Origin: Dictyostelium discoideum
Taxonomy: Eukaryota
Direction: 5' to 3'
NCBI GenBank assembly: GCA_000004695.1
Contig: CM000150.2
Coordinates: forward strand, 1,216,001 to 1,280,000
Length of the DNA: 64,000 nt
Shown here: in pieces, positions 37,447 to 55,013 of the stretch
Layout: every line of letters starts with the position of its first letter
Position numbering within the stretch: the first letter of the stretch is position 1
Notes under the pieces: generated by a model
Seen by the model: only the letters and a program-made list of their open reading frames with translations
Told to the model about the DNA's origin: nothing
Databases searched by the model: none
Translations under genes and position numbers: made by a program

Positions 37447-37561
37447 ATGAAATTAAATATATTTTATTTATTTGTAATAGTTTTAACATTATCAAATATC
37501 AACAATGTTTTTGGTGATCTTAATCAAGCTGAATGTAAATATTTTATTTTATTTTCCACAC

Positions 37562-37592
<31 letters not shown>

Positions 37593-37637
37593 CCACTTAA
37601 TTTCTGAATTTTTAATATGTATAGTTTTAATTTCTTA

Positions 37638-37684
<47 letters not shown>

Positions 37685-37863
37685 TATAGTTTGGCAAGCA
37701 ATTACCAAGATACTGTAATACTCAATTCACTCGGTGTTCCATCAACATTTTGTTCTTTAGGTGCAGCATATGGTGCTTGTAATTCCAATGGATCAGTTAC
37801 TGATTTGTAAGTTTTTAATAATTTTTTTTTTTCTAAAATTTTAAAATAACTTGGAAACACTAA

Positions 37864-37894
<31 letters not shown>

Positions 37895-38898
37895 AAAATA
37901 GAACTTTTAAACCAACAGTATACAGTAGTCCAATAAAAACAGATGATTTAAAATGTTTACCATTCCTTGCTTCGTTTAATTTAGTTAATGGATTTGCTAA
38001 CCCATCAATTTTACAAACAAATTCATATAACACAAACTTGAAAAAAATGTAATGTATAATTAAAAAAAATAAAAAATAAAAAATAAATACTACATTGATA
38101 ATTTATACTAATTTTTTATTATTTTTAATTATACATAAAAAAAAAAAAAAAAAAAGTAAATGGAGTTCTTATATTCCTTTTGATATTGATTTTGAAATTG
38201 GTAATTTAGATTCATTAGATTGGGGAAGTTCTCAAACTAGTCACATTTCAACAATTACTCCATATTCTTTAAAAAATGTTAGAATTTTGTAAGTAAAATA
38301 AATATACACACATATATGTGTATTTAATTTTTGAAAGAATTTAAATATTTATTTTCTTATTTATTTTTATTTTTATTTTCTTTATAGTAATTCTAAATCA
38401 AATGTTAATCTTGTTCCAGGTACAAATTCAGGTTATGTAAATAATTATACAATTTCATATTCTGGTAATTCAAATAATATGCCAGATTTAACAAATATGA
38501 TTAATGTTGGAACAATTTCAATGAATTTCGCATTATCATTTAATGAATCATCTTTTATTAATATGAATGGATATTCTAATGTATTAAAAACAATTTTAAT
38601 TTCAAGTTCAACAATAATGAGATTCCCATATGAATTAGCAAATGGTGTACCAAGAGATTATTTATACATTAATTCTGATGGTTTAAAAGCACCTTCTTCA
38701 CTAATTGATTTATCAAATATTCCATATATTAGTATGTTTCAAATTTTAAAAATGGGTCAAGATTTTAATTATCAAGGTAATTTTCCATTTTCTAAATTAC
38801 CTTTAAAATGTAAATCTCTGTAAGTATATAAATATATATATATATATATAATTTATTTGTAAATAATAATAATAATAAAATAATGAATTAATAAATTA

Positions 38899-38931
<33 letters not shown>

Positions 38932-41146
38932 TCATTTTGCTAAAGGTAATACACCAAATGTTGATTGGCAAATCTTTGAAAATGTAACAGGTATAATGTT
39001 ACAAGATTTAAAAATTATTACACCATTCCCACCATCAAATCCATTTAGTCCATTAGTTACATCATTTGATGTTAGTCAAAATCAAATTGCAGGTCAAGTT
39101 GATGAATCATGGTGCTCAGTTTTATTAACTTTAAATAAAAATTTATTCACTGGTGTGATTCCAAATTGTTTTTATTGTTACTTGAATATTCAATCAATTG
39201 GTAATAGCTTTGCTCAAAATAATTTTGATAATTATAATACCACAAATAACAAATGTGGTTATGGTAAGTAAAAAAAAACTTAAAATTGATTTCTATATAT
39301 ATATATGTATACTATATTAATTTTTTTTTATTTTTTTTTATATATATATTAATATATAGATATCATTGTACCATATGTTTATTATAATAAAACATCAACA
39401 TTATTGACACTTAGAGGTAAAAATTTAGGTTGGGTACAAACTAATTTTAAAACATCAACTTGTGTAATTATTTTCACTGATCGATTTACTGTAGTTGGAT
39501 GTACAGGAACATATATGAATGTAACATTTGTAAATCAAAATTTAAATTTTACATTATCATTAGATGGTACAGAACCAATAATTAGTAATGTTATTCAAAC
39601 AAATAATACATTTATAATTAGTGGATCCTATTTTGCATATGAACCATCAATTATCAATGTTACAATTGATGGAGAGTCACCATTAAATTGTGAATTTACA
39701 AATTCAAGTATAATTCCAACATTTTATAGTATTCAATGTGATATTGGATATCCAGTGGTTGAATATGGGTTAAAGAATTTAACAGTACAAGTAAATAGTT
39801 TAGTTTCAAAACCATATGAATTTAGTCTTGATTATACTAAAGTGCCATGTCCAATTTCAGATTGTAATGGTAATGGTATTTGTAATGATCATATTGGTGT
39901 TTGTGAATGTTTTAATGATTGGAAAACAATTGATGATGAAATTTGTACAGTTGCAATTCATTATTTATCAGCATATACTCAAACATCAGATATCGATGGT
40001 GGTATCATTAATTTATATGGTTTCTTTGGTGATATTCATAATGATTATAAAGTTTTAATTGATGGTATTCAATGTCCAATCGAAGTTGCACCAACATCAA
40101 CAGTTTTTACAATTTCAGTTGACTCTGGTACAATTGGTACAAATTCATCAATTGAAATCATTCAAAATGATTTATCATTCCATGGTACAATCTATCCATA
40201 TGAAAATTTAATTAAAGAATGTCCATCGAATTGTAATGGTATCAGCAATGGTAAATGTAATAGTACAACTGGTGAATGCACTTGTAATGAAGGTTTCATC
40301 GGTGTTGATTGTATCAAACTCACAAATTATACATTACCAACCATCACATCATCAATTTCAAATGTTGGTTTATTATTTAAAAGTGAACAAACTGTTTTTA
40401 TAGCTTCATTTTATTCATTTGTTGAAGTTGATTACACTGGTACCATTATTAAATCAGTTGTAATAAGTTCATGGGAACCTGAAAATATTAACCAAGGTAT
40501 TAAATACACTGGTTCATCGTCAAATAGTGATGGTGTTTTTGAAATTACATTTTTAAAAGTACCAACAAATCAACAATTTTCATTTGCAGGTAATGAATTC
40601 AACATTGGAGCAGGTGGTGCTAAAATGTCAATAACAGTTTCAAATTACACATATTCAAACCAATCAAATTATTTAGTCGCGGCTATGCAAGCTAAAGCTG
40701 AGTCAGATCCAAGATCACCAATTCAAAATAAGTGTAATAATGGTACAATCGTAATTACATCACAATCAAATAGTAATTTAACTTTAAATAATTATAATTA
40801 TTTTACAATTTCAAAAGATGCTAAAAGATTATCAATTAGATTACAAGATAGATTAATATCAGATGGTCAAGCAACTTTTATGGTAAATCAACTTAATATT
40901 CAACAACCTGATCATAGTTTATTATTTGGTATGTCACTCCCACATTGTGGTAAACAATGTTCAATCGATGGTCCTGATTTTATTGTTAACATTGAATCAA
41001 ATTATAAAGTTTTAAGTTCATGTTCACCACAACCAACATCAACACCAAAATCAAGCTCTGAAGAACCATCTTCTTCATTAAAACAACAATCTTTAATTTC
41101 TTTTATTTTAATAATATTTTTAATTTCATCAATTATTTTAAATTAA
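37447..41146 (+). CDS. Secreted/GPI-type surface protein with an N-terminal signal peptide, LRR-like repeats, IPT-like and two EGF-like modules, and a C-terminal hydrophobic tail. CDS join(37447..37534, 37674..37806, 37902..38048, 38157..38288, 38388..38809, 38931..39263, 39360..41146).
   Basis: The signal peptide is MKLNIFYLFVIVLTLSNINNVFG. The LRR-like exons are linked by phase-consistent GT..AG introns (gtaaat, gtaagt, gtaatg, gtaagt, gtaaat, gtaagt). EGF-like modules are CPISDCNGNGICNDHIGVCECFNDW and CPSNCNGISNGKCNSTTGECTCNEGFIGVDC. The protein ends …SSSLKQQSLISFILIIFLISSIILN*, a GPI-anchor-like signal with no cytoplasmic tail. It is a paralogue of the gene at 50897..55013. Confidence 0.65.
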
Positions 41147-41305: not shown

Positions 41306-43652
41306 TTAATTAATAATATTATAACCATTATATTGATTATTATTATAAAAAGTTTTACGAAAACCATTAATTGCCATTACTAAACCAGCAATTAATAAGA
41401 TACCACCAAAAATTGAAACTACAACTACTGGAGCAATTTTAACAGTTTGAATTTGTTTAAATTGTTGTTTTAATAAATTTATATCATTTGTTGAAGCGGT
41501 TGCAGTTTGACCAATTTTTAAACTTGGATAAAAAATACCAAAACTATTGCTATTGGTTGGACTAAAAATATTTGTCCAATTACCTAATGAAGAGAACCAT
41601 AAACTATTTGCATTTGAAGGAATTTGTAAATTAATTTGAAGTTTTAAATTATAATAGAGTGTATTACCAGTGATTGGTTCTAAATCCAATGGTATTTCAG
41701 CATTTTCATAGGTTTGATTTAATCCATTAATATAGAGTGAACTATATTCTATTGGTACACCATACATATCCCAAAGTGAAACATAAATTGGAACACCATT
41801 AAAAAGACCAGTTAAATTTGCAAAACCATTGATTGAATTATTAAAAACTGGATCAATTGGAAAACTTTGATTTGGTAAATAATATCTTTGAGTTGAAACA
41901 CCCATTACTGATGAAGATGAAGAATGTACCAATGAAAGTGGTCTTAAAATATTCTCTTCAAAAATGGTTAAACTTTGTGGTAGATTATCTTGAACCAATG
42001 GAGCCATTTGACCATTTTCAACGAAACCAGTTACATTTACAGTACCATTCCAAATGGTAAGTGTTGATTGTTCTTGAAATTGTTGATATTGATTAGTTAA
42101 TGATAAATCTTTCTTTCCTGTATAAACAGTTGATGGTTTAAAAATTGTATTATTTTGTTGAAATGAACATTGTTGATCAATACCTAAATAATCTAATAAA
42201 TCATCTTGACAATCCCATAACCATTCATTTGCAGTTCTTGTAACAATTAAACCAGATGTATTATAAAATGATTGAACAGATTTAATTGAATAACCAGTTG
42301 TATTTGGAATATAACTTAAAAAGTAACCAATCATTGTCATTGCATCATTATTTGTTAAATTCCATTTTGTAAAATTATTACTATTTGTTGACATTTGTTC
42401 AAGAAATAAACCTAAACCGTGAATTGTTAATAGGGAATCATCAATACTATCATTAAATAAATTGGATTGAGCTTCATTTGTTGAAATTGTTAAATTTGTA
42501 CCCATTGCAATTGGAATTTCAATTGGTTCTAACCAAGGTAAATTTGTTATATTAAATTGACTAATTGATTTATAACCTAATGGTATTGTTGTTATAAATT
42601 GACAAACACCTAATAGTTCAATTGATTCAATTTCACATTGCTTTAATAATTGGCTCATTGTATATTGATCATTAAATCCTTTTAACCACCAAATCATTAC
42701 CAATGTTAATTGTGCTTGATTAATACCTAATTCTTGTTCAAGTATTTGATATGAATTTGAATTTGGACCATTAAAAACTGCATTTATCCAATAACTAATA
42801 CCATTGGTACTATTTAATAATGAATATTGATTCATTGGATTTAAAATTTCCAATGCCGATTGTAAACTTATACCACTTGGTGAATCTAATCCATAAGATA
42901 TCAACATATTATCCCATAATGAACTATTACCATTGGTTGGAATAATAGTTGAATTTGACCATTGTTCTAAAAAATAAATGGTTGGAGTTGTTGTTAAATT
43001 ATTATTAATTGTTGATAATAATAATTGATATTGTTGATTAAAATATTTTGGACCATTATAAAAATATGCAATCATTGTAAAATTATCACTTGATAAATAT
43101 TCTAAAAATTGTTTAGTTTGTGGTGCTGATGCTAAAGTATATAATAAATCCTCTGCTGTCATACCTAATGTAATTGAATTTTTTGATAGTGTTGATAATA
43201 AACCTAAATAAGCTGGATTAAAATTGGTTGTACTAACTGTAAATGGATTTAATGAATCCTCACCTTCAATCCATTTATATGATTTACTTTGAATATAATT
43301 TATTAAATTGCCATCATCACTAAATGAAACTTTACTATTATTCCATTCATATTTATAATTAAATGGTCCAATCTTTTCAAAATTACAATTTTTACCATTT
43401 AATACTTCATTTGGATTTGTCTATATTTTTAAAATTTATTAATTATTTATTTATTTTTTTTTGAAAAAAAAAAAGTACTTACCAAATTCCAAAGATAATA
43501 ATATTGTTTAAAATAATTATCTACTGATTTTTGTCCTGCCCAATCATTATATCTTTGACTTTTCTAATTTTAATTTAAAAAAAAAAAAAAAAAAAATCAA
43601 ATTAAAAAAAAAGAAAAGAAAATTAGTTTTTTTTGATCTTTTTTGGGTTAAC

Positions 43653-47018: not shown

Positions 47019-48188
47019 ATGGGTCCAAAAGGTAAAAAGAAAGGTCAATCATTTGATGATTCAGATGAAGAAATTAATAATAAAAAAGGTGGAAATAAAA
47101 AAGGACAACAATTAGAAGATGATATTCCTCAACCAGTTAAAAAGGGTGGAAATAAAAAAGGTCAAAGAGGTAAACAAGACTCTGATGATGAACCAGAAAA
47201 TATTCCTCAACCAGTAGCAAAGAAGAGTAATAATAAAAAAGGTCAAAGAGGTAAACAAGATTCAGATGATGAACAAGATGAAATTCCTCAACCACAAAAG
47301 AAAGGTGGTAAACCAGCTCCACAACCACAAAAGAAAGGTGGTAAACAACAAGATTCAGATGATGAACAAGATGAAATTCCTCAACCAGTTAAAAAAGGTG
47401 GTAAACCAGCTCCACAAAAGAAAGGTGGTAAACAACAACAACAACAAGATTCAGATGATGAACAAGAAGAAATTCCTCAACCAGTCAAGAAAGGTGGTAA
47501 ACCAGCTCCACAAAAGAAAGGTGGTAAACAACAAGATTCAGATGATGAAGAAGATGAAATTCCTCAACCAGTTAAGAAAGGTGGTAAACCAGCTCCACAA
47601 AAGAAAGGTGGAAAACAACAAGAATCTGAAGATGAAGATGAAGAAGATGAAGTTCAACAACCAGTAAAGAAAGGTGGTAAAAATGATAAAAAGAAAGGTG
47701 TTAAACATGTTGAAGAAGAGGAAGAAGAAGAGGAAGAAGAAGAAATTGAACAACCAGTTAAAAAAGGTGGTAAAGCTCCAAAACCAAAGAAAGGTGGTAA
47801 GGGTAGTAAACAAGAATCTGAAGATGAAGAAGATGATGTTCAACAACCAGTAAAGAAAGGTGGTAAAAAAGATAAAAAGAAAGGTAGTAAACATGTTGAA
47901 GAAGAGGAAGAAGAAGAAGAGGAAGAGGAAATTGAACAACCAGTTAAAAAAGGTTCAAATAAAAAAGATCAAAAGAAAGGTGGTAAAGGTAAACATGTTG
48001 AAGAAGAAGAGGAAGAAGAAGAAGAAGAGGAAATTGAACAACCAGTAAAAAAAGGTTCAAATAAAAAAGATCAAAAGAAAGGTGGTAAAGGTAAACAACA
48101 ACAAGAATCTGAAGATGAAGAAGAGGAAATTCAACAACCAGTAAAGAAAGGTGGTAAAAAAGATAAAAAGAAAGGTAGTAAACATGTT

Positions 48189-48220
<32 letters not shown>

Positions 48221-48424
48221 AGAAATTGAACAACCAGTTAAAAAAGGTGGTAAAAAAGATAAAAAATCAAGTTTGGAAGATAGTATGTCAGAACTTTCAA
48301 TTAAATCAAAGAAAGGTGGTAAGGGTAAACATGTTGAAGAAGAAGAAGAACAAGAACAAGAAGAAGAAGAGGAAAAACCAAAATCAAAATCAAATAAAAA
48401 AGATAAAAAGAAAGGTAAACATGT

Positions 48425-48457
<33 letters not shown>

Positions 48458-50447
48458 AGAAAAACCAAAATCAAAATCAAATAAAAAAGATAAAAAGAAA
48501 GGTAGTAAACATATTGAAGAAGAAGAAGAAGAAGAAGAAGAAGAAGAAGAAGAAGAAAAAGAAGAAGAAGAAGAAAAAAAAATGACATTAGCAGAAATTA
48601 GAGCAGCAAAAAAAGTTAAAAAAGTTGATAAAAAAGAGAAAAAGAAAGAAAAAGAGAAAAAGAAAAGAGATGAACAAGAAGAGGATGCATTCGAACTTGC
48701 AAAAAAGAAACAACAAGAAGAGATTGATTATGATAATATTGATATTGATGATGTACCAGGTAAAGATGCACCAACCTATGTTCATTTGAAATCATCAGAA
48801 GGTTTAAGAAGTAAAATTGGTAATGATATTAAATTTGATAATTTAATACTTTCAGTTCCAGGTAGAATTTTATTAAATAATGCATCACTTACACTTGCCT
48901 ATGGTCAAAAGTATGGTTTTGTTGGTAGAAATGGTATTGGTAAATCAACATTGGTTAAAAAGATTGCAATGCGTGATGAAATTACCATTGCACCACATCT
49001 TCGTGTATTGTATGTAGAACAAGAGGTAACTGGTGATGATACAACTCCATTGGATTGTGTATTGGCAGCTGATGAAGAAAGAAAATGGTTACTTGATGAA
49101 GAGAAAGTTTTAACAGAATTGGAAAAAGTTAACCCAAGTTGGCAATTTGATCCACGTCAAAAGAGAAATTACTCACTTCGTGATATTTATGATCGTCTTA
49201 AAGAGATTGATGCCGATAAAGCATCGATTAGAGCTGCAAACATTTTAATTGGTTTAGGTTTCACATTTGAAGAGATATCTGTAAAGAAATCTAGAGATTA
49301 TTCAGGTGGTTGGAGAATGAGAATTGCATTGGCAAGAGCACTCTTTTGTAAACCAGAAGTATTATTACTTGATGAACCTTCAAATCATTTAGATTTACAT
49401 GCTTGTGTTTGGTTAGAGAAATATTTAAATCAATGGGATCGTACATTATTGGTTGTATCTCATGAAGCTTCATTCCTTAATGAGGTTGTTGATAATATCA
49501 TTTACATTCATGATCAAAAGTTGGATCAATACAGAGGTAACTATGATGCATTTATGAAACAAAAATCTGTAAATCTTAGATCAAAAGAAAAGGAAAAAGA
49601 TAAACAAGATAGAAAATTAAAGAAAATGAATGAATTCATTACAAAGAATAAGAATAATACTCAAGCTAAACAAGCAGCATCTCGTGCAAAGAAAATGGAG
49701 AAAATTGAAACCATTGAACTTGAGCGAGAGGATGCTTCACTCGTTGTAGATTTCCCACAACCTGAACATTTAACACCACCATTATTGGTATTTAAAGATG
49801 TTTGCTTCGGTTATGAAGGTAGACCAACTATGTTTAAGAAATTGGATATTGGTATCGATATGGATTCAAAGATTGCTTTGGTTGGTATGAATGGTGTTGG
49901 TAAGTCAACTCTTATGAAACTAATGAATGGTGATCTTCATGAAACCACTGGTTACATTGAAAGAAGTAGAAAAATGCGTGTAGCTAGATTCTCTCAACAT
50001 TTTGTCGATCAATTGGATACCACTATGACACCAATCGAATATTTCCAATCGAAATTCAATAATCCACCAGTTCAACAAATTCGTAATCATTTAGGTAGAT
50101 TTGGTATTTGTAATTCCTTACCATTACATAAAATTACAACTTTATCTGGTGGTCAAAAGAGTAGAGTCATTTTAGCTGAATTAGCTTGGGCTGAACCTCA
50201 TATTCTCTTATTGGATGAACCAACAAATCATCTTGATATTGATGCTATCGAAGCTTTAGCTGAAGGTATTAATGCTTTCACTGGTGGTGTAGTTTTAATT
50301 TCTCATAATCAACATTTAATTAATTTAATTGCTGAACAAATTTGGGTTGTTAAAAAAGATGGTACAATTTATTTATATCCAGGTACTTTTATGGATTATA
50401 AAAATGAAATTTCAAGAGAAATTGATAATATGGTTATTAGAAGTTAA
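47019..50447 (+). CDS. ABC transporter F family (ABCF1/ABC50-like soluble tandem-ATPase) with a ~520-aa Lys/Glu-rich tandem-repeat N-terminal extension, 1142 aa, single exon.
   Basis: Two ABC cassettes are present. Cassette 1 has Walker A GRNGIGKST, signature LSGGWRMRIALARAL and Walker B LLLDEPSNHLD. Cassette 2 has GMNGVGKST, LSGGQKSRVILAEL and LLLDEPTNHLD. There are no TM domains. The N-terminus is an array of about 14 units of the type IPQPVKKGGKPAPQKKGGKQQDSDDEQDE or HVEEEEEEEEEEIEQPVKKGSNKKDQKKGGKGK. It is probably the abcF1 orthologue. Confidence 0.9.
47080..48590 (+). repeat. Coding tandem-repeat array (about 14 units of 60-100 nt) in the ABCF N-terminal extension.
   Basis: There are repeated ORF-internal units cctcaaccagt(t/a)aa(a/g)aaaggtgg(t/a)aaaccagctccacaaaagaaaggtgg(t/a)aaacaacaagattcagatgatgaa…. 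The many alternative-frame and antisense ORFs in the track (47137..47939, 47860..48426, 48301..48785) are by-products of this array. Confidence 0.85.
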
Positions 50448-50896: not shown

Positions 50897-51655
50897 ATGA
50901 AATTAATATTTATTATAATTTTATTTATAATTTTTAAAGTAAAACCATTTTTATCAAATAATTTATCAACTAGTGAATGTAAAATTACATTTGAAATAAT
51001 TAAAAATAAATAAAAAAATAAAAAAAAACTAAAAAAAAATAAATTTTAATAAATAAATAAAATAAAAAATAATTATAATAATTTTTAGATAGTTGTGCTA
51101 ATGATATTTCAGAATTTTTAATAGATACAACATTTATTTATAATGGTACATATGGATATGAATTTTGTGAGAATAAAAATTTCTTTTGTAATGGTGATAG
51201 TGTTGTTAGAATTAATTTTAATGGTTCAGATTCATTTGGAGTAACATATTTAAATTGTTTTAAACAACTTTCTTATTTGTATGGTATTATAAGTTTTTTT
51301 ATAATTTTTATTTTTTTTTAATTAATAAATTTTCCAAACTAATATTTAAAAAAAAAAAAAAAAAAAAAGAAAATTAGATCATTCAAAAATGCCATTACAT
51401 TTTTTTAGTACATATATAATTTCACCAATAAATGAAATGTAAGATTAATATATTTTTTTTTTTTATACTAATATTTTTAAAAAAAAAAAAATTATATATT
51501 AACCAAAATAAAAAATAGTTTTATAAATGAACCATCTAATGATATATCATTTTCAAATGTAATATTAAATCCTTCAATTAAAATATTGTAAGTTTTTTTG
51601 TTTTTTTTTTATTTTCATAATAAATTAAAATTTTAAAATAATAAAATTAATTCAA

Positions 51656-51709
<54 letters not shown>

Positions 51710-54700
51710 GTAATTTTATAGGAAAATCACCATCAACTATGAATTTTAATTTTTCTTCATTTAGTGATGTTCAAAATTTAACAATTAAATATATTGGTTC
51801 AGATCCAAATTGGACATATTATAATGATTTAACGTCAAGTAAAACAATGTCAAGTTGGACTATAGTATCTTCAAATGTCCCATCTTTTAATTTAATGAAA
51901 ATTAATTTTTTGTAAATATTTAAATTTATTTTTTTTTTTTCATATTTTTTATTTTTATATTTATTTATTTTTTTTTTTTTTATTTTTTTTTTTTTTTTTT
52001 ACTAATTTTTTTTATTTTTTTTATTTTTTTTATTTAGAAACATATTTTTAACAAAACAATATTCAGAAACAAGTAAAAATAATTATATAACATTTAAAGA
52101 TATTTCAATAGTTAAATTTGAATTATTTAATATTTCAAATTCATTTGAAATTCAATTCCCTGTTGAAATTTTTAATTTTGAAAGAAATTCTCAAGAAATG
52201 TAATTTTATTATTTTATTTTTACCATATAAATATGTATATATATTTAAAATTATTAATATTTTTAAAATTTTAGTGAATTTTCAATTCCATTTTCAAAAG
52301 TTCCAAATTTATTAGATTTTTCAACATTTACAAATAATAGTGGAATTAAAAAGTTAACATTATCAAATGCAGGTTTAAATTTTAATTTTAATTTAAAATT
52401 TCCATTTATAAATTTACAAAATTCATTTTCAAATATTAATCAATTGTAATTATAATTATTTATTATTATTTTTTTTATTATTTATTATTATTATTTATTT
52501 TTTAAATAATTTTATTAATTTTTTATTTTTAATAATTTACACAAAACAAAAAAGTTCATTTAATAATGGTAACTTTAATAATATACCAGATTTATCAATT
52601 TTTGGAATGTCAATTTCAATATTAGATTTATCAAATAATTTAATTAGTGATACACTTCCAGAATTTGAAAGAAGTAAAACAAATTTAAAACATATAAATT
52701 TAAGTAAAAATAATATTACTGGAATAATACCAAGTTCATGGTGTGAAATAGAAAATATTGATTTAACAAATAATAATTTAAATGGTGATTTACCATTATG
52801 TTTTTCTGTATGTATAATTTTTTTTTTTTTTTTTTTTATAATCATTTAAAAAAATGATAATTAACCACTACTTTTTTATTTTTGAAAATGAAAAACAGTG
52901 TTTTTATTCAATAAATTCAAATCAATTTATTAATAATCCAAATTTAATTGTACCAACAACAACAAATAAAATTAGTTATTGTAAAACTTCACCAAATTTG
53001 ATATTTAATAATAATGATAATTGTTTTTATTTTTTTGGATTAGATTTAGGTTCAAAAGTTTATTTTAAAACAAATCAAGATTTTATTTTTGCAAATGATT
53101 GGGAAATTATAATTCCAAATAAAAAATTTAAAAATTGTATTAATAATGAAACTGTATTAAATGACTTACCAACATTATTTGAATTTTATTATCCAAGTAA
53201 TGGTAATAATTTTACATTATCAACTGAAAGAAAGAATCCAATTATTACAGAAGTTCAAATTCCATCTAGTTCATTACCTGGAACTGTTATATTCATTGGT
53301 TCTTATTTTTCATACAATTCATCAATTATTAATATTTTAGTAAACGGGTATCAATGTTTAATAGAAGTTTCCAAATTTAATTATTTATTATGTAAAACTG
53401 ATATTGACGCAATAAATGAAAATAAATATATATTTTCAATTATAACAATTGAAACAATATCGTCAACACGGATTTCATTTATTCCAACTATTGAATCAAC
53501 TAAAATTATACAATGTAATGAATCATGTTTAGAAAATCAATTTTGTGCTAACGATATTGGGAAATGTAAATGTTTGGATGGCTATTTCGGTAGTACGTGT
53601 AATGGAATCGTACATTTTGTTTCAAGTGTTGATTCAGTTGATAGATTAGGTGGTATTGTTACATTGTATGGTGAATTTGGACCAGTTCATGATAATGCTT
53701 CTATTGAAATCGGTAATTTACTTTGTGAAATAATTGAAATTAATAATTATCAAGCTTTATGTAAATTAAATAGTTTTCCTGAAAATTCTTTAAAAATTCA
53801 ATTATTAAATTTCACACAAAATAATTTAATTTGGATATCAAATGAAATTTATCATATTCGTGAAACAATTTTAAATTGTCCAAATGATTGTAACCAATTT
53901 TCAGAATTAAAATCTGGTATATGTAATAAAACTATTGGTTTATGTAATTGTAATATTGGTTGGACAGGTTTTGATTGTAGTAGTAGTATTAATGTTAATT
54001 CAAATTCATCATCAATAAAACCAAATACAACAATAGATAATAATGGTACAACAACGATTTCTTTAGATTTTTTAAATTTTCAAATTTTAATTACAAAATT
54101 ATCTGAAATTAAATTTGATAATTCAATTTATAAAACTTTTAATCTTTTAAATAATTGGAATGTTTTAATTGATAATAATAATAATAATAATAATAATTTA
54201 TATAAATTTCAACAAATTATACCAGGTAATAGAGGTATTATTGAATTTACAATTGAAGAATCAACTAATGATAAAGAATATGAATTTATTGATACAAAAT
54301 ATAAACTTGAAAAAGGTTCAATTAAAATTTCAATTAATATTACAAATTACCAATTTAATAATCAATTAAATACATTACAATTGGAAATTGAAACAAAAAT
54401 AAATGATTATTATTATAATAATAATAGTAATTATAATAATTGTAATAGTAAAAAAGAATCATTAGAAACTTTTAATCAACAACAATTAAATTATATAATA
54501 ATTCAAAAAGATAAAAAACAATTATATGGTCGTTTTATTAATAGAATTTTATCAAATGGTAAACCAACTTTAATTGATACAAAATCAATTAAAAATTCTG
54601 ATAATACTTCAATTACTTTATTAATGTCAATACCACATTGTACAAAATCTTGTATTATTGATCCTGGTAAATATATTATTTTATTTTATTTTATTTTTTA

Positions 54701-55013
54701 ATTTATTATTATATTAATATTTTTTATTTTTTGAAAAAAAAAAAAATAAAAAAAAAAAAAATAAAAAAAAAAAAAAAAAAAAGATTTTTCAGCATTATTA
54801 TCAATTGATCATAAATCATCATGTAAAACTGATAGTGATGGAAATATTATAAATGAATCAGTTGATAAAGGAGTACCAAAAACAACAATAATTGCTGTTA
54901 TTATTTCAATTGTTGGCGTAGCAACCATATTTGGTATTGGTTTATTAATATATAGAAAGAAAAGAGTGGAAAATGAATTAGCTATAAAATTAAAAAATGC
55001 TCAAAAAAAATAA
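50897..55013 (+). CDS. Type-I membrane protein with a signal peptide, LRR repeats, IPT-like and EGF-like modules, a TM helix and a short cytoplasmic tail (paralogue of 37447..41146). CDS join(50897..50978, 51089..51278, 51370..51438, 51519..51587, 51711..51911, 52038..52199, 52275..52445, 52555..52807, 52899..54666, 54784..55013).
   Basis: The signal peptide is MKLIFIIILFIIFKVKPFLS. The first intron sits at the same site and phase as in the paralogue (…SE|C split T|GT, gtaaaa). The LRR exons are FSIPFSKVPNLLDFSTFTNNSGIKKLTLSNAGLNFN… and LDLSNNLISDTLPEF…LKHINLSKNNITGIIPSSW…IDLTNNNLNGDLPLCF. EGF-like modules are CNESCLENQFCANDIGKCKCLDGYFGSTC and CPNDCNQFSELKSGICNKTIGLCNCNIGWTGFDC. The last exon encodes TM IIAVIISIVGVATIFGIGLLIY plus the RKKRVENELAIKLKNAQKK tail. 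Junctions were derived by hand and several may be off by a few nt. Confidence 0.6.

What the first reader, a model, noticed from the sequence alone, without database searches (positions are those of the whole stretch)
37447..41146. Paralogous LRR + IPT/EGF-like surface proteins with different membrane attachment (GPI-type tail versus TM + cytoplasmic tail)
The genes at 37447-41146 and 50897-55013 share a signal peptide, a first intron at the identical codon (E|C, phase 1), LRR exons and two EGF-like modules (CNGNGICN…CECFNDW and C…NGKCNSTTGECTCNEGF / CNKTIGLCNCNIGW). The first ends in a short hydrophobic tail with no cytoplasmic residues (…SSSLKQQSLISFILIIFLISSIILN*), a GPI-signal-like ending. 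The second has a separate last exon encoding a TM plus a basic cytoplasmic tail. This LRR + EGF architecture resembles cell-adhesion or recognition molecules. A membrane-anchor switch between paralogues suggests functional diversification.
Basis: inference. Interest (0 to 1): 0.5.

Follow-up and report, generated by a model that had tools for sequence, protein, structure and literature searches.

The report
ComC-family surface protein with GPI-type tail
Two neighbouring Dictyostelium genes encode related cell-surface proteins of the known ComC family, one with the family's usual membrane-spanning anchor and the other ending in a short greasy tail typical of a lipid (GPI) anchor; this is a real but fairly ordinary variation.

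Summary
The window is Dictyostelium discoideum AX4 chromosome 1. Gene 1 (37447-41146, 7 exons, 1013 aa) is DDB_G0268412. Gene 2 (50897-55013, 10 exons, 1064 aa) is the LRR protein gene upstream of psiE.

The two are distant paralogues: 27% identity over 663 aa, E 5e-43. Both belong to the curated ComC family (Pfam LRR_ComC, beta-sandwich/TIG, EGF, ComC_SSD).

Gene 2 ends in the family's standard 24-aa TM helix plus a basic tail. Gene 1 and its nine orthologues in other Dictyostelium genomes end in an S/T/P linker, a conserved PS[SF]S[LI][KR] motif and a 16-17 aa hydrophobic stretch, with no residues after it.

A downstream TM exon is excluded. There is no GT in the last 124 nt, and a convergent CD36-family gene ends 159 bp after the stop.

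Among the 150 best family representatives, 129 have a TM plus tail. Only the gene-1 group and one D. purpureum protein have the GPI-like end, so this end looks like the derived state.

GPI attachment itself is inferred, not shown.

Two further results: the gene-1 LRR half evolves at about the neutral rate (omega 0.8-1.3), and the AX4 reference differs at the exon 5/6 junction. This is a new member of a known kind, of modest interest.

The parts
37447..37534 (+). Gene 1 exon 1. Encodes the signal peptide MKLNIFYLFVIVLTLSNINNVFG (aa 1-23, 37447-37515). Ends in phase 1 inside a Tyr codon (T|AT).
   Evidence: Splice enumeration; hydropathy. The N-terminus is identical to NCBI KAM9944026.
37674..37806 (+). 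Gene 1 exon 2: N-terminal cap of the LRR domain, Cys-containing.
37902..38048 (+). Gene 1 exon 3: the LRR_ComC domain starts here at aa 89 (37945).
38157..38288 (+). Gene 1 exon 4 (LRR).
38388..38809 (+). Gene 1 exon 5 (LRR). In the window only the GTAAAT donor at 38810 keeps the frame. The canonical GTAAGT donor at 38820 is in frame only in the strain ACTFIT sequence.
38931..39263 (+). Gene 1 exon 6: the LRR_ComC domain ends at aa 379 (39145), followed by a Cys-rich LRR C-cap.
39360..41146 (+). Gene 1 exon 7, including the stop codon. Contains beta-sandwich/IPT-like domains, EGF-like 1 (39851-39925), EGF_2 (40220-40312) and ComC_SSD (40385-40987).
   Evidence: Pfam; AlphaFold2 model; coordinate mapping.
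41030..41068 (+). Gene 1 S/T/P-rich linker QPTSTPKSSSEEP (aa 976-988). Disordered in the model.
41069..41143 (+). Gene 1 putative GPI-attachment signal SSSLKQQSLISFILIIFLISSIILN (aa 989-1013). Candidate omega site is in SSS (41069-41077). Hydrophobic tail is 41093-41143.
   Evidence: Sequence inspection. Conserved in 9 orthologues. No GT donor in 41023-41146.
50897..50978 (+). Gene 2 exon 1: signal peptide. Same phase-1 T|AT intron position as gene 1.
51089..52807 (+). Gene 2 exons 2-8 (51089-51278, 51370-51438, 51519-51587, 51711-51911, 52038-52199, 52275-52445, 52555-52807): the LRR region.
   Evidence: The product is identical to KAM9944029.
52899..54666 (+). Gene 2 exon 9: TIG (53238-53426), two EGF-like modules (53499-53603, 53877-53981), and most of ComC_SSD (which starts at 54024).
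54784..55013 (+). Gene 2 exon 10: end of the SSD, stalk, TM helix (54882-54953), basic cytoplasmic tail (54954-55010) and stop.
41306..43162 (-). Last long exon of a convergent CD36-family gene. Its stop lies 159 bp from the gene 1 stop. It is context only: it leaves no room for a further gene 1 exon.

Best explanation
Gene 1 (DDB_G0268412) and gene 2 are two members of the Dictyostelium ComC family of secreted-pathway surface glycoproteins.

**Shared architecture (shown).** Signal peptide, ComC-type LRR solenoid, IPT/TIG-like beta-sandwiches alternating with two EGF-like modules, a ComC 'supersandwich' domain, a short stalk, then a membrane anchor.

**Gene 2 (shown at sequence level).** It keeps the family's standard type I anchor: a 24-aa TM helix and a 19-aa basic cytoplasmic tail, on a separate last exon.

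**Gene 1 (inferred mechanism).** The homologous segment has been remodelled into a GPI-attachment signal. After ER import, the transamidase would cleave at a Ser of the conserved PSSS motif (about aa 989-991) and remove the roughly 24-aa propeptide. It would then attach the ceramide-based phospholipid anchor known for Dictyostelium csA. The whole ectodomain would then sit on the outer leaflet with no cytoplasmic part.

**Expected consequences (inferred).**
- By analogy with csA, slow internalisation and long surface residence.
- No direct cytoplasmic signalling. The protein would act as an adhesion or recognition ligand, or as a co-receptor for a TM partner.

**LRR evolution.** The fast-evolving LRR half is the likely binding surface (inferred from the measured rates).
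For: **Family membership**
- Gene 1: ComC_SSD E 3e-27 (96 bits, cutoff 24); LRR_ComC E 2e-20 (74 bits, cutoff 27); EGF_2 E 3e-7.
- Gene 2: ComC_SSD E 1.5e-48; TIG 22.3 bits (cutoff 20.9).
- Gene 1 orthologues add Beta-sand_ComC_2nd and TIG.
- Paralogy E 5e-43. Intron positions are shared.

**Structure**
- AlphaFold2 gives a confident LRR (pLDDT about 75-94), beta-rich middle and SSD regions, a disordered linker at 977-1003 and a terminal helix.
- Fold matches are to plexin and MET IPT arrays and to plant and TLR-type LRR ectodomains.

**Anchor**
- All gene 1 orthologues, from four named Dictyostelium species plus two D. cf. discoideum isolates, end in a 16-17 aa hydrophobic stretch with 0 residues and 0 charges after it. 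A conserved PS[SF]S[LI][KR] motif precedes it.
- Gene 2 and P0010 have 24-25 aa TM helices followed by 16-19 residues carrying 6-10 charges.
- 129 of the 150 best family representatives have a TM plus tail with a conserved (K/R)(P)W(L/V)IPV motif that gene 1 lacks.

**No hidden exon:**

**Dictyostelium precedent**
- A 25-aa C-terminal signal suffices for phospholipid anchoring of csA.
- Swapping that anchor for a TM region speeds internalisation and degradation (PMC2119896).

**Evolutionary rates**
- Gene 1: dN 0.049-0.087. Omega 0.46-0.67 overall, 0.8-1.3 in the LRR half, and 0.25-0.58 in the C-terminal domains.
- Neighbouring genes: dN 0.004-0.029 in most, up to 0.048 in one unannotated ORF; omega 0.05-0.36 in most, 0.70 in that ORF.
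- Gene 2: omega 0.33.
Against: - No GPI predictor (NetGPI, PredGPI, big-PI) and no biochemistry were available. A C-terminal hydrophobic stretch of 17-20 residues could still act as a tail-less TM helix.
- There is no expression evidence for either gene, and no paper mentions DDB_G0268412.
- In the AX4 reference, the exon 5/6 junction is out of frame with the canonical donor. The AX4 allele might therefore be impaired, or the reference might be wrong.
- The near-neutral omega of the LRR half is equally compatible with relaxed constraint. The test against omega = 1 gave p = 0.36-0.89.
- The function of the family is known only genetically, and only for comC itself.
Confidence: 0.7

Rival explanations
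1. Gene 1 encodes a type I membrane protein held by a tail-less transmembrane helix. The C-terminal hydrophobic stretch is not cleaved and no GPI is added.
For: The segment SLISFILIIFLISSIILN is positionally homologous to the TM helix of the paralogues. AlphaFold2 models it as a helix, 996-1015. No predictor or experiment was run.
Against: - The stretch is 16-17 aa, against 24-25 aa in TM-type members.
- It has no flanking basic residues and no cytosolic residue at all.
- It lacks the family's conserved (K/R)(P)W(L/V)IPV motif at the start of the TM segment.
- A small-residue SSS motif sits at the spacing expected for an omega site and is conserved across species that differ by 35-40% overall.
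Confidence: 0.15
2. In the AX4 lab strain, gene 1 is a damaged allele. Normal use of the GTAAGT donor at 38820 with the acceptor at 38930 shifts the frame and truncates the protein inside the LRR, so the GPI-type tail is never made in this strain.
For: - The window reads ...AAAAAGGTCATTTTGC where the 99.7%-identical strain ACTFIT reads ...AAAAAGTCAATTTGC.
- Only the ACTFIT version is in frame with the canonical donor. That version gives KSLQFAKG, as in all orthologues.
- The shared intron position with gene 2 corresponds to the canonical donor.
Against: - A GTAAAT donor 10 nt upstream restores the frame with the loss of 3 aa. The curated AX4 model uses it.
- The difference lies at the end of a long A-run, where Sanger-era reference errors are common.
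- The rest of the ORF is intact.
Confidence: 0.1
3. The gene 1 model is incomplete and a further exon supplies a TM helix and cytoplasmic tail.
For: None found. Gene 2 does have such a separate last exon.
Against: - There is no GT between 41023 and the stop codon.
- The 159 bp downstream are AT-only with stops in all frames. A convergent CD36-family gene follows.
- No plus-strand ORF encoding a TM segment exists within 3 kb.
- The segment homologous to gene 2 exon 10 (DF...SSC...) is read through without an intron in gene 1.
- Nine orthologue models stop at the same point.
Confidence: 0.02

Closest known systems
ComC (communication mutant C) of D. discoideum and the Pfam ComC domain set (PF24141 LRR_ComC, PF24143 Beta-sand_ComC_2nd, PF22933 ComC_SSD)
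   Same: Both genes share its domain order: signal peptide, ComC-type LRR, beta-sandwiches plus EGF modules, then the supersandwich domain. Hits lie well above the curated cut-offs. ComC is described as an EGF-domain protein with a signal peptide and TM segment, and its mutant shows aberrant aggregation (PMC4931340, PMC2873529).
   Different: Gene 1 lacks the TM helix and cytoplasmic tail and has a GPI-type end. Neither gene is comC itself. No phenotype is known for either.
Contact site A (csA/gp80), the phospholipid-anchored adhesion protein of D. discoideum
   Same: It is a surface glycoprotein with a C-terminal signal of about 25 aa that directs lipid anchoring. Experiments showed that anchor type sets surface residence time (PMC2119896). 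The predicted gene 1 propeptide is 24-25 aa.
   Different: There is no sequence or domain relationship. For csA the anchor is proven; for gene 1 it is inferred.
GPI-anchored or tail-less LRR co-receptors beside TM-type LRR receptors (CD14 with TLR4, Nogo receptor, plant TMM with ERECTA-family kinases); named from general knowledge
   Same: These are LRR ectodomains without a cytoplasmic part that must signal through a TM partner. The fold search hits plant LRR receptor ectodomains, the ERL1-TMM complex and TLR1.
   Different: The structural matches are weak: target-normalised TM-score 0.45 or below, 11-16% identity. No partner is known here. The resemblance is analogy, not homology.
Anchor isoforms of adhesion molecules (NCAM-120 GPI versus NCAM-140/180 TM; LFA-3)
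   Same: The same ectodomain type is displayed with either a GPI or a TM anchor. These cases are cited as parallels in PMC2119896.
   Different: Those isoforms arise by alternative splicing of one gene. Here the two anchors belong to separate, anciently diverged paralogues.

Membership tests
ComC family (Dictyostelium) | ComC-type LRR domain (PF24141) | tested here: met
   Gene 1: E 2.1e-20, 74 bits against a cutoff of 27, covering aa 89-379. Gene 2 matches only the generic LRR_8 and LRR_1 models in hmmscan. In the MAFFT alignment A1, however, the gene 2 N-terminal region lines up with the LRR half of gene 1 and its orthologues. The ACTFIW orthologue of gene 2 carries a precomputed PF24141 hit.
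ComC family (Dictyostelium) | C-terminal ComC supersandwich domain (PF22933) | tested here: met
   Gene 1: E 3.1e-27, 96 bits. Gene 2: E 1.5e-48, 166 bits. The cutoff is 24.
ComC family (Dictyostelium) | IPT/TIG-like beta-sandwiches alternating with EGF modules between the LRR and the SSD | tested here: met
   - Gene 1: EGF_2 31 bits (cutoff 22.1).
- Gene 2: TIG 22.3 bits (cutoff 20.9).
- Gene 1 orthologue P0006: Beta-sand_ComC_2nd 34.8 bits and TIG 27.2 bits.
- Gene 1 itself has no direct TIG hit. The AlphaFold2 model is beta-rich there but only moderately confident.
- Fold matches to plexin and MET IPT arrays, E about 1e-5 to 4e-4.
ComC family (Dictyostelium) | Single TM helix plus a basic cytoplasmic tail after the SSD (present in 129 of the 150 best representatives) | tested here: not met
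   Gene 2 meets it (TM helix at aa 1022-1045 plus a 19-aa tail). Gene 1 does not: it has a 17-aa terminal hydrophobic stretch with 0 residues after it and lacks the (K/R)(P)W(L/V)IPV motif. Gene 1 is therefore a family member by its ectodomain, with a variant anchor.
ComC family (Dictyostelium) | Role in intercellular communication or aggregation (the comC mutant phenotype) | not testable with these tools
   Only literature on comC itself was found. Nothing was found on DDB_G0268412.
GPI-anchored proteins | Cleavable N-terminal signal peptide | tested here: met
   MKLNIFYLFVIVLTLSNINNVFG|D: a hydrophobic core with V-F-G at positions -3 to -1. This rests on hydropathy and inspection only. SignalP was not available.
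GPI-anchored proteins | C-terminal hydrophobic stretch (about 15-20 aa) ending the protein, with no cytosolic residues | tested here: met
   LISFILIIFLISSIILN, with 0 residues after it. The same holds in 9 orthologues.
GPI-anchored proteins | Small residues at omega to omega+2, a polar spacer of about 5-10 aa, and a flexible upstream linker | tested here: met
   S989-S990-S991, the spacer LKQQSLI, and the upstream linker QPTSTPKSSSEEP, which has pLDDT 30-34. The PS[SF]S[LI][KR] motif is conserved. The rule was applied by inspection, from general knowledge of the big-PI model.
GPI-anchored proteins | Positive call by a trained predictor (NetGPI, PredGPI, big-PI) | not tested
GPI-anchored proteins | Biochemical proof (PI-PLC release, anchor-component labelling, loss of the propeptide) | not testable with these tools
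   This is an experiment. The csA protocol in PMC2119896 is the model.

The most novel reading that the evidence does not exclude
The gene 1 lineage may be a 'variable head, constant stalk' recognition system.

**Measured**
- A GPI-type ComC-family ending sits behind a fast-diversifying LRR domain. Omega is about 1 within D. discoideum.
- The LRR halves of the tandem copies in D. citrinum and D. firmibasis are only 43-52% identical.
- The C-terminal half, including the anchor signal, is kept 87-100% identical between those tandem copies by gene conversion.

**Proposed**
- Such a protein could act in kin, prey or pathogen recognition as a ligand or co-receptor for TM-type ComC paralogues. This would resemble the Tgr system or GPI-anchored LRR co-receptors.
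Probability: 0.12. Interest if true: 0.65.

Novelty: new member of a known kind. Interest (0 to 1): 0.3.

Why it matters
- It gives a corrected full-length model for DDB_G0268412. The RefSeq model lacks the signal peptide and roughly the first 80 residues.
- It places both genes in the ComC family.
- It identifies a rare, conserved GPI-type anchor variant in a family that is otherwise TM-anchored.
- In Dictyostelium, anchor type is known to set surface residence time (shown for csA). The pair therefore offers a natural contrast for asking what the cytoplasmic tail and TM helix of ComC-type proteins do.
- The fast-evolving LRR half makes gene 1 a candidate recognition molecule.
- None of this overturns current understanding. 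It is an annotation-level refinement with one testable lead.

Tried and rejected
- **Profile search with full-length alignment A1.** After the nine orthologues it was swamped by plant LRR receptor kinases and was useless for a family census. It was replaced by a C-terminal-half profile searched against all representatives.
- **Literature searches.** 'comC + lagC + Dictyostelium' and 'DDB_G0268412' returned nothing. A search for Dictyostelium omega-site literature gave nothing usable.
- **Whole-model fold search.** It gave only weak matches (target-normalised TM-score 0.45 or below). It supports the domain classes and nothing more.
- **Test for positive selection in the LRR half.** Omega is 0.8-1.3 but not different from 1 (binomial p = 0.36-0.89). 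I therefore claim only 'near-neutral rate', not positive selection.
- **Trans-specific or balanced polymorphism.** Rejected: dS is not elevated relative to the neighbouring genes, and allele identities follow the strain and species order.
- **Synteny test for D. purpureum P0229 as the gene 1 orthologue.** No CD36-family Pfam hit is recorded for any neighbouring gene (several neighbours have no Pfam record). A single versus a double origin of the GPI-like end is left open.
- **Discarded result.** The 'g1 exon7' row used the wrong reading frame. One search has the correct values.
- **Classification artefact.** Three of the five 'hydrophobic end' hits in the census are truncated TM-type models; two of them (P0247, P0277) carry the KPWLIPV motif and the third (P0212) a KWLIPV variant. 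They were not counted as GPI-like.
Full report
**Source and gene models**

The window is very AT-rich, with 9-36% GC per kb, and has short AT-rich GT..AG introns. Exact and near-exact protein matches place it on D. discoideum AX4 chromosome 1.

I enumerated all GT/AG combinations that keep an open frame.
- Gene 1 has one consistent 7-exon structure: 37447-37534, 37674-37806, 37902-38048, 38157-38288, 38388-38809, 38931-39263, 39360-41146. It encodes 1013 aa.
- Gene 2 has a 10-exon structure: 50897-50978, 51089-51278, 51370-51438, 51519-51587, 51711-51911, 52038-52199, 52275-52445, 52555-52807, 52899-54666, 54784-55013. It encodes 1064 aa.
- The gene 2 product is identical to NCBI KAM9944029.
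- Gene 1 is DDB_G0268412. The AX4 RefSeq product (940 aa) matches my model from residue 81 onward but starts at a spurious internal ATG and so lacks the signal peptide.

**Paralogy and family**

- BLASTP of the two products gives 27% identity over 663 aligned residues, E 5e-43. tblastn finds no third copy in the window.
- Pfam puts both in the curated ComC domain set.
  - Gene 1 hits ComC_SSD (E 3e-27), LRR_ComC (E 2e-20) and EGF_2.
  - Gene 2 hits ComC_SSD (E 1.5e-48), TIG, LRR_8 and LRR_1.
  - Orthologues of gene 1 add Beta-sand_ComC_2nd and TIG.
- On a nine-sequence alignment the first intron falls in the same column and phase in both genes. It follows Glu and splits a T|AT Tyr codon.
- Intron 5 of gene 1 coincides exactly with intron 7 of gene 2, and intron 3 of gene 1 lies within one column of intron 3 of gene 2.
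- An AlphaFold2 model was built for the 1016-aa ACTFIT allele (mean pLDDT 69).
  - The LRR solenoid is confident.
  - The middle region and the SSD are beta-rich.
  - Residues 977-1003 form a disordered linker, followed by a terminal helix.
- Foldseek hits are weak but of the expected classes: plexin and MET IPT arrays, plant LRR receptor ectodomains, and TLR1.

**The two C-termini**

- Gene 2 ends with a stalk, a 24-residue TM helix and the tail RKKRVENELAIKLKNAQKK. These lie on a separate last exon entered at DP|DF.
- In gene 1 the homologous DF...SSC segment is read through without an intron.
  - It continues into the linker QPTSTPKSSSEEP.
  - The linker is followed by SSS and the spacer LKQQS.
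  - The protein then ends with LISFILIIFLISSIILN-stop.
- All nine orthologues end the same way. They come from D. discoideum strains, two D. cf. discoideum isolates, D. citrinum, D. dimigraforme and D. firmibasis, and are 57-89% identical overall.
  - Each has a 16-17 aa hydrophobic stretch with no residue and no charge after it.
  - Each keeps a conserved PS[SF]S[LI][KR] motif at the spacing expected of an omega site.
- By the usual GPI rules, all sequence requirements are met. These are small residues at omega to omega+2, a spacer of about 7 residues, a hydrophobic end of about 15 aa, a flexible upstream linker and an N-terminal signal peptide. I could not run a trained predictor.

**Could a hidden exon exist?**

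- No GT dinucleotide occurs between 41023 and the stop codon at 41144-41146.
- The next 159 bp are pure AT-rich spacer with stops in every frame.
- At 41306 the stop codon of a convergent CD36-family gene begins. No plus-strand ORF with a TM segment lies within 3 kb.

**Which state is derived?**

- I built a profile from the C-terminal halves of both genes plus one more family member. I searched it against 1.84 billion cluster representatives. It found 1258 proteins at E<=1e-3 and 208 at E<=1e-30.
- I classified the C-termini of the best 150.
  - 129 have a TM helix plus a charged tail. The start of the TM segment is typically (K/R)(P)W(L/V)IPV.
  - 14 lack a C-terminal hydrophobic segment and are probably incomplete models.
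  - Only two have a genuine terminal hydrophobic end. One is the representative of the gene 1 orthogroup. The other is D. purpureum DICPUDRAFT_80584.
- The closest paralogue representatives of gene 1 (32-34% identity) are all TM-type.
- The GPI-like end is thus a rare, derived variant and gene 2 shows the default.
- The D. purpureum gene has no neighbour with a recorded CD36-family hit. One or two origins remain open.

**Functional reading**

- For comC itself the literature found here says only two things. It is an EGF-domain protein with a signal peptide and TM segment, restricted to group-4 dictyostelids. Its mutant aggregates aberrantly.
- For anchors there is direct Dictyostelium precedent. 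A 25-aa C-terminal signal directs ceramide-based phospholipid anchoring of csA.
- Replacing that anchor with a TM region leaves adhesion intact but makes the protein much more rapidly internalised and degraded (PMC2119896).
- I therefore infer that the gene 1 product is lipid-anchored and long-lived on the surface. It cannot signal directly and would act as an adhesion or recognition ligand or as a co-receptor.

**Evolutionary rates**

I aligned 24 kb of the window to the syntenic loci of three other strains.

| Region | dN | omega |
|---|---|---|
| Gene 1, whole | 0.049-0.087 | 0.46-0.67 |
| Gene 1, LRR half | – | 0.8-1.3 |
| Gene 1, beta-sandwich/EGF and SSD parts | – | 0.25-0.58 |
| Flanking genes | 0.004-0.029 (0.048 in one unannotated ORF) | 0.05-0.36 (0.70 in that ORF) |
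| Gene 2 versus D. cf. discoideum | – | 0.33 |

- dS for gene 1 is 0.11-0.13, similar to the flanking genes.
- The LRR-half omega is not significantly different from 1.
- In D. citrinum and D. firmibasis the gene 1 type is a tandem pair. The LRR halves are only 43-52% identical, while the C-terminal halves are 87-100% identical within a species.
- That pattern points to concerted evolution of the stalk and anchor half and strong divergence of the LRR.
- This is suggestive of a recognition function but does not prove it.

**Caveat on the AX4 allele**

- At the exon 5/6 acceptor the window reads AAAAAGGTCATTTTGC. The 99.7%-identical strain ACTFIT reads AAAAAGTCAATTTGC.
- Only the ACTFIT version is in frame with the canonical GTAAGT donor. 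It yields KSLQFAKG, as in all orthologues.
- In the window, only the GTAAAT donor 10 nt upstream keeps the frame, at the cost of 3 aa.
- This is either a reference error beside a long A-run or a real lesion in the lab strain.

**Verdict**

- The thing is a known family (ComC) and both genes are already catalogued.
- The new points are:
  - a corrected gene model;
  - the rarity and conservation of the GPI-type end within the family;
  - the fast-evolving LRR.
- Novelty: new member of a known kind. Interest: 0.3.

Noticed in passing
window 38810-38945 (gene 1 exon 5 donor and exon 6 acceptor): The AX4 reference differs from the 99.7%-identical strain ACTFIT by a 1-nt indel and one substitution right after a long A-run (AGGTCATTTT versus AGTCAATTT). 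In the window the canonical GTAAGT donor is out of frame and only an upstream GTAAAT donor keeps the ORF. This is either a reference error or a real lab-strain lesion.
   Followed up: partly
window 37447-38048 and 51370-51911: The AX4 RefSeq models of both genes are defective. XP_647473 (940 aa) starts at an internal out-of-frame ATG and lacks the signal peptide. XP_002649210 (1023 aa) omits exon 3 and part of exon 5. An older record (UPI00004E4BA5, 1480 aa) fused gene 2 to psiE.
   Followed up: yes
Proteins P0004/P0007 (D. citrinum ACTFIU_000560/561) and P0006/P0008 (D. firmibasis RB653_007626/627): In these species the gene 1 type is a tandem pair. The LRR halves are 43-52% identical, while the C-terminal halves are 87-100% identical within a species. 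That suggests gene conversion of the stalk and anchor half with a hyperdivergent LRR. D. discoideum has a single copy.
   Followed up: partly
window 37447-39263 compared with L002, L003 and L004: The LRR half of gene 1 evolves at about the neutral rate (omega 0.8-1.3), with dN 5-10 times that of most neighbouring genes. dS is ordinary, so there is no sign of ancient balanced polymorphism.
   Followed up: partly
window 34161-36080 (-) and 41306-43162 (-): Two CD36-family (LIMP-2-like) paralogues, about 70% identical at the nucleotide level, flank gene 1 on the opposite strand. This arrangement is conserved in all four other strain loci examined (L001-L004).
   Followed up: partly
window 37079-37145 and 37221-37285: A direct repeat of about 65 bp, 142 bp apart, lies in the gene 1 upstream region. 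Its core is AACCGTTTAATTTCCTATTTTATT(A)nCCATTG..CAAATTT. It may be a duplicated promoter element.
   Followed up: no
window 47019-50447 (+): A 1142-aa ORF encodes an ABC-F-type ATPase (two ABC_tran domains plus ABC_tran_Xtn). It is preceded by a strongly purine-rich, repetitive N-terminal region (AT skew 0.49) whose length varies between strains.
   Followed up: no
L006 8001-11476 (D. purpureum DICPUDRAFT_80584, P0229): This is a second ComC-family protein with a GPI-like end (...SSDDEVNASSLILYSSYLVLSLLSLVILI). It is 31% identical to gene 1, and no neighbouring gene has a recorded CD36-family hit. It may be an independent anchor switch.
   Followed up: partly
L002 and L003 versus window 27447-51200: Strains labelled D. 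discoideum (ACTFIW, ACTFIR) differ from AX4 by dS of about 0.03-0.18 across this locus. That is large for one species and suggests deep lineages within the named species.
   Followed up: no
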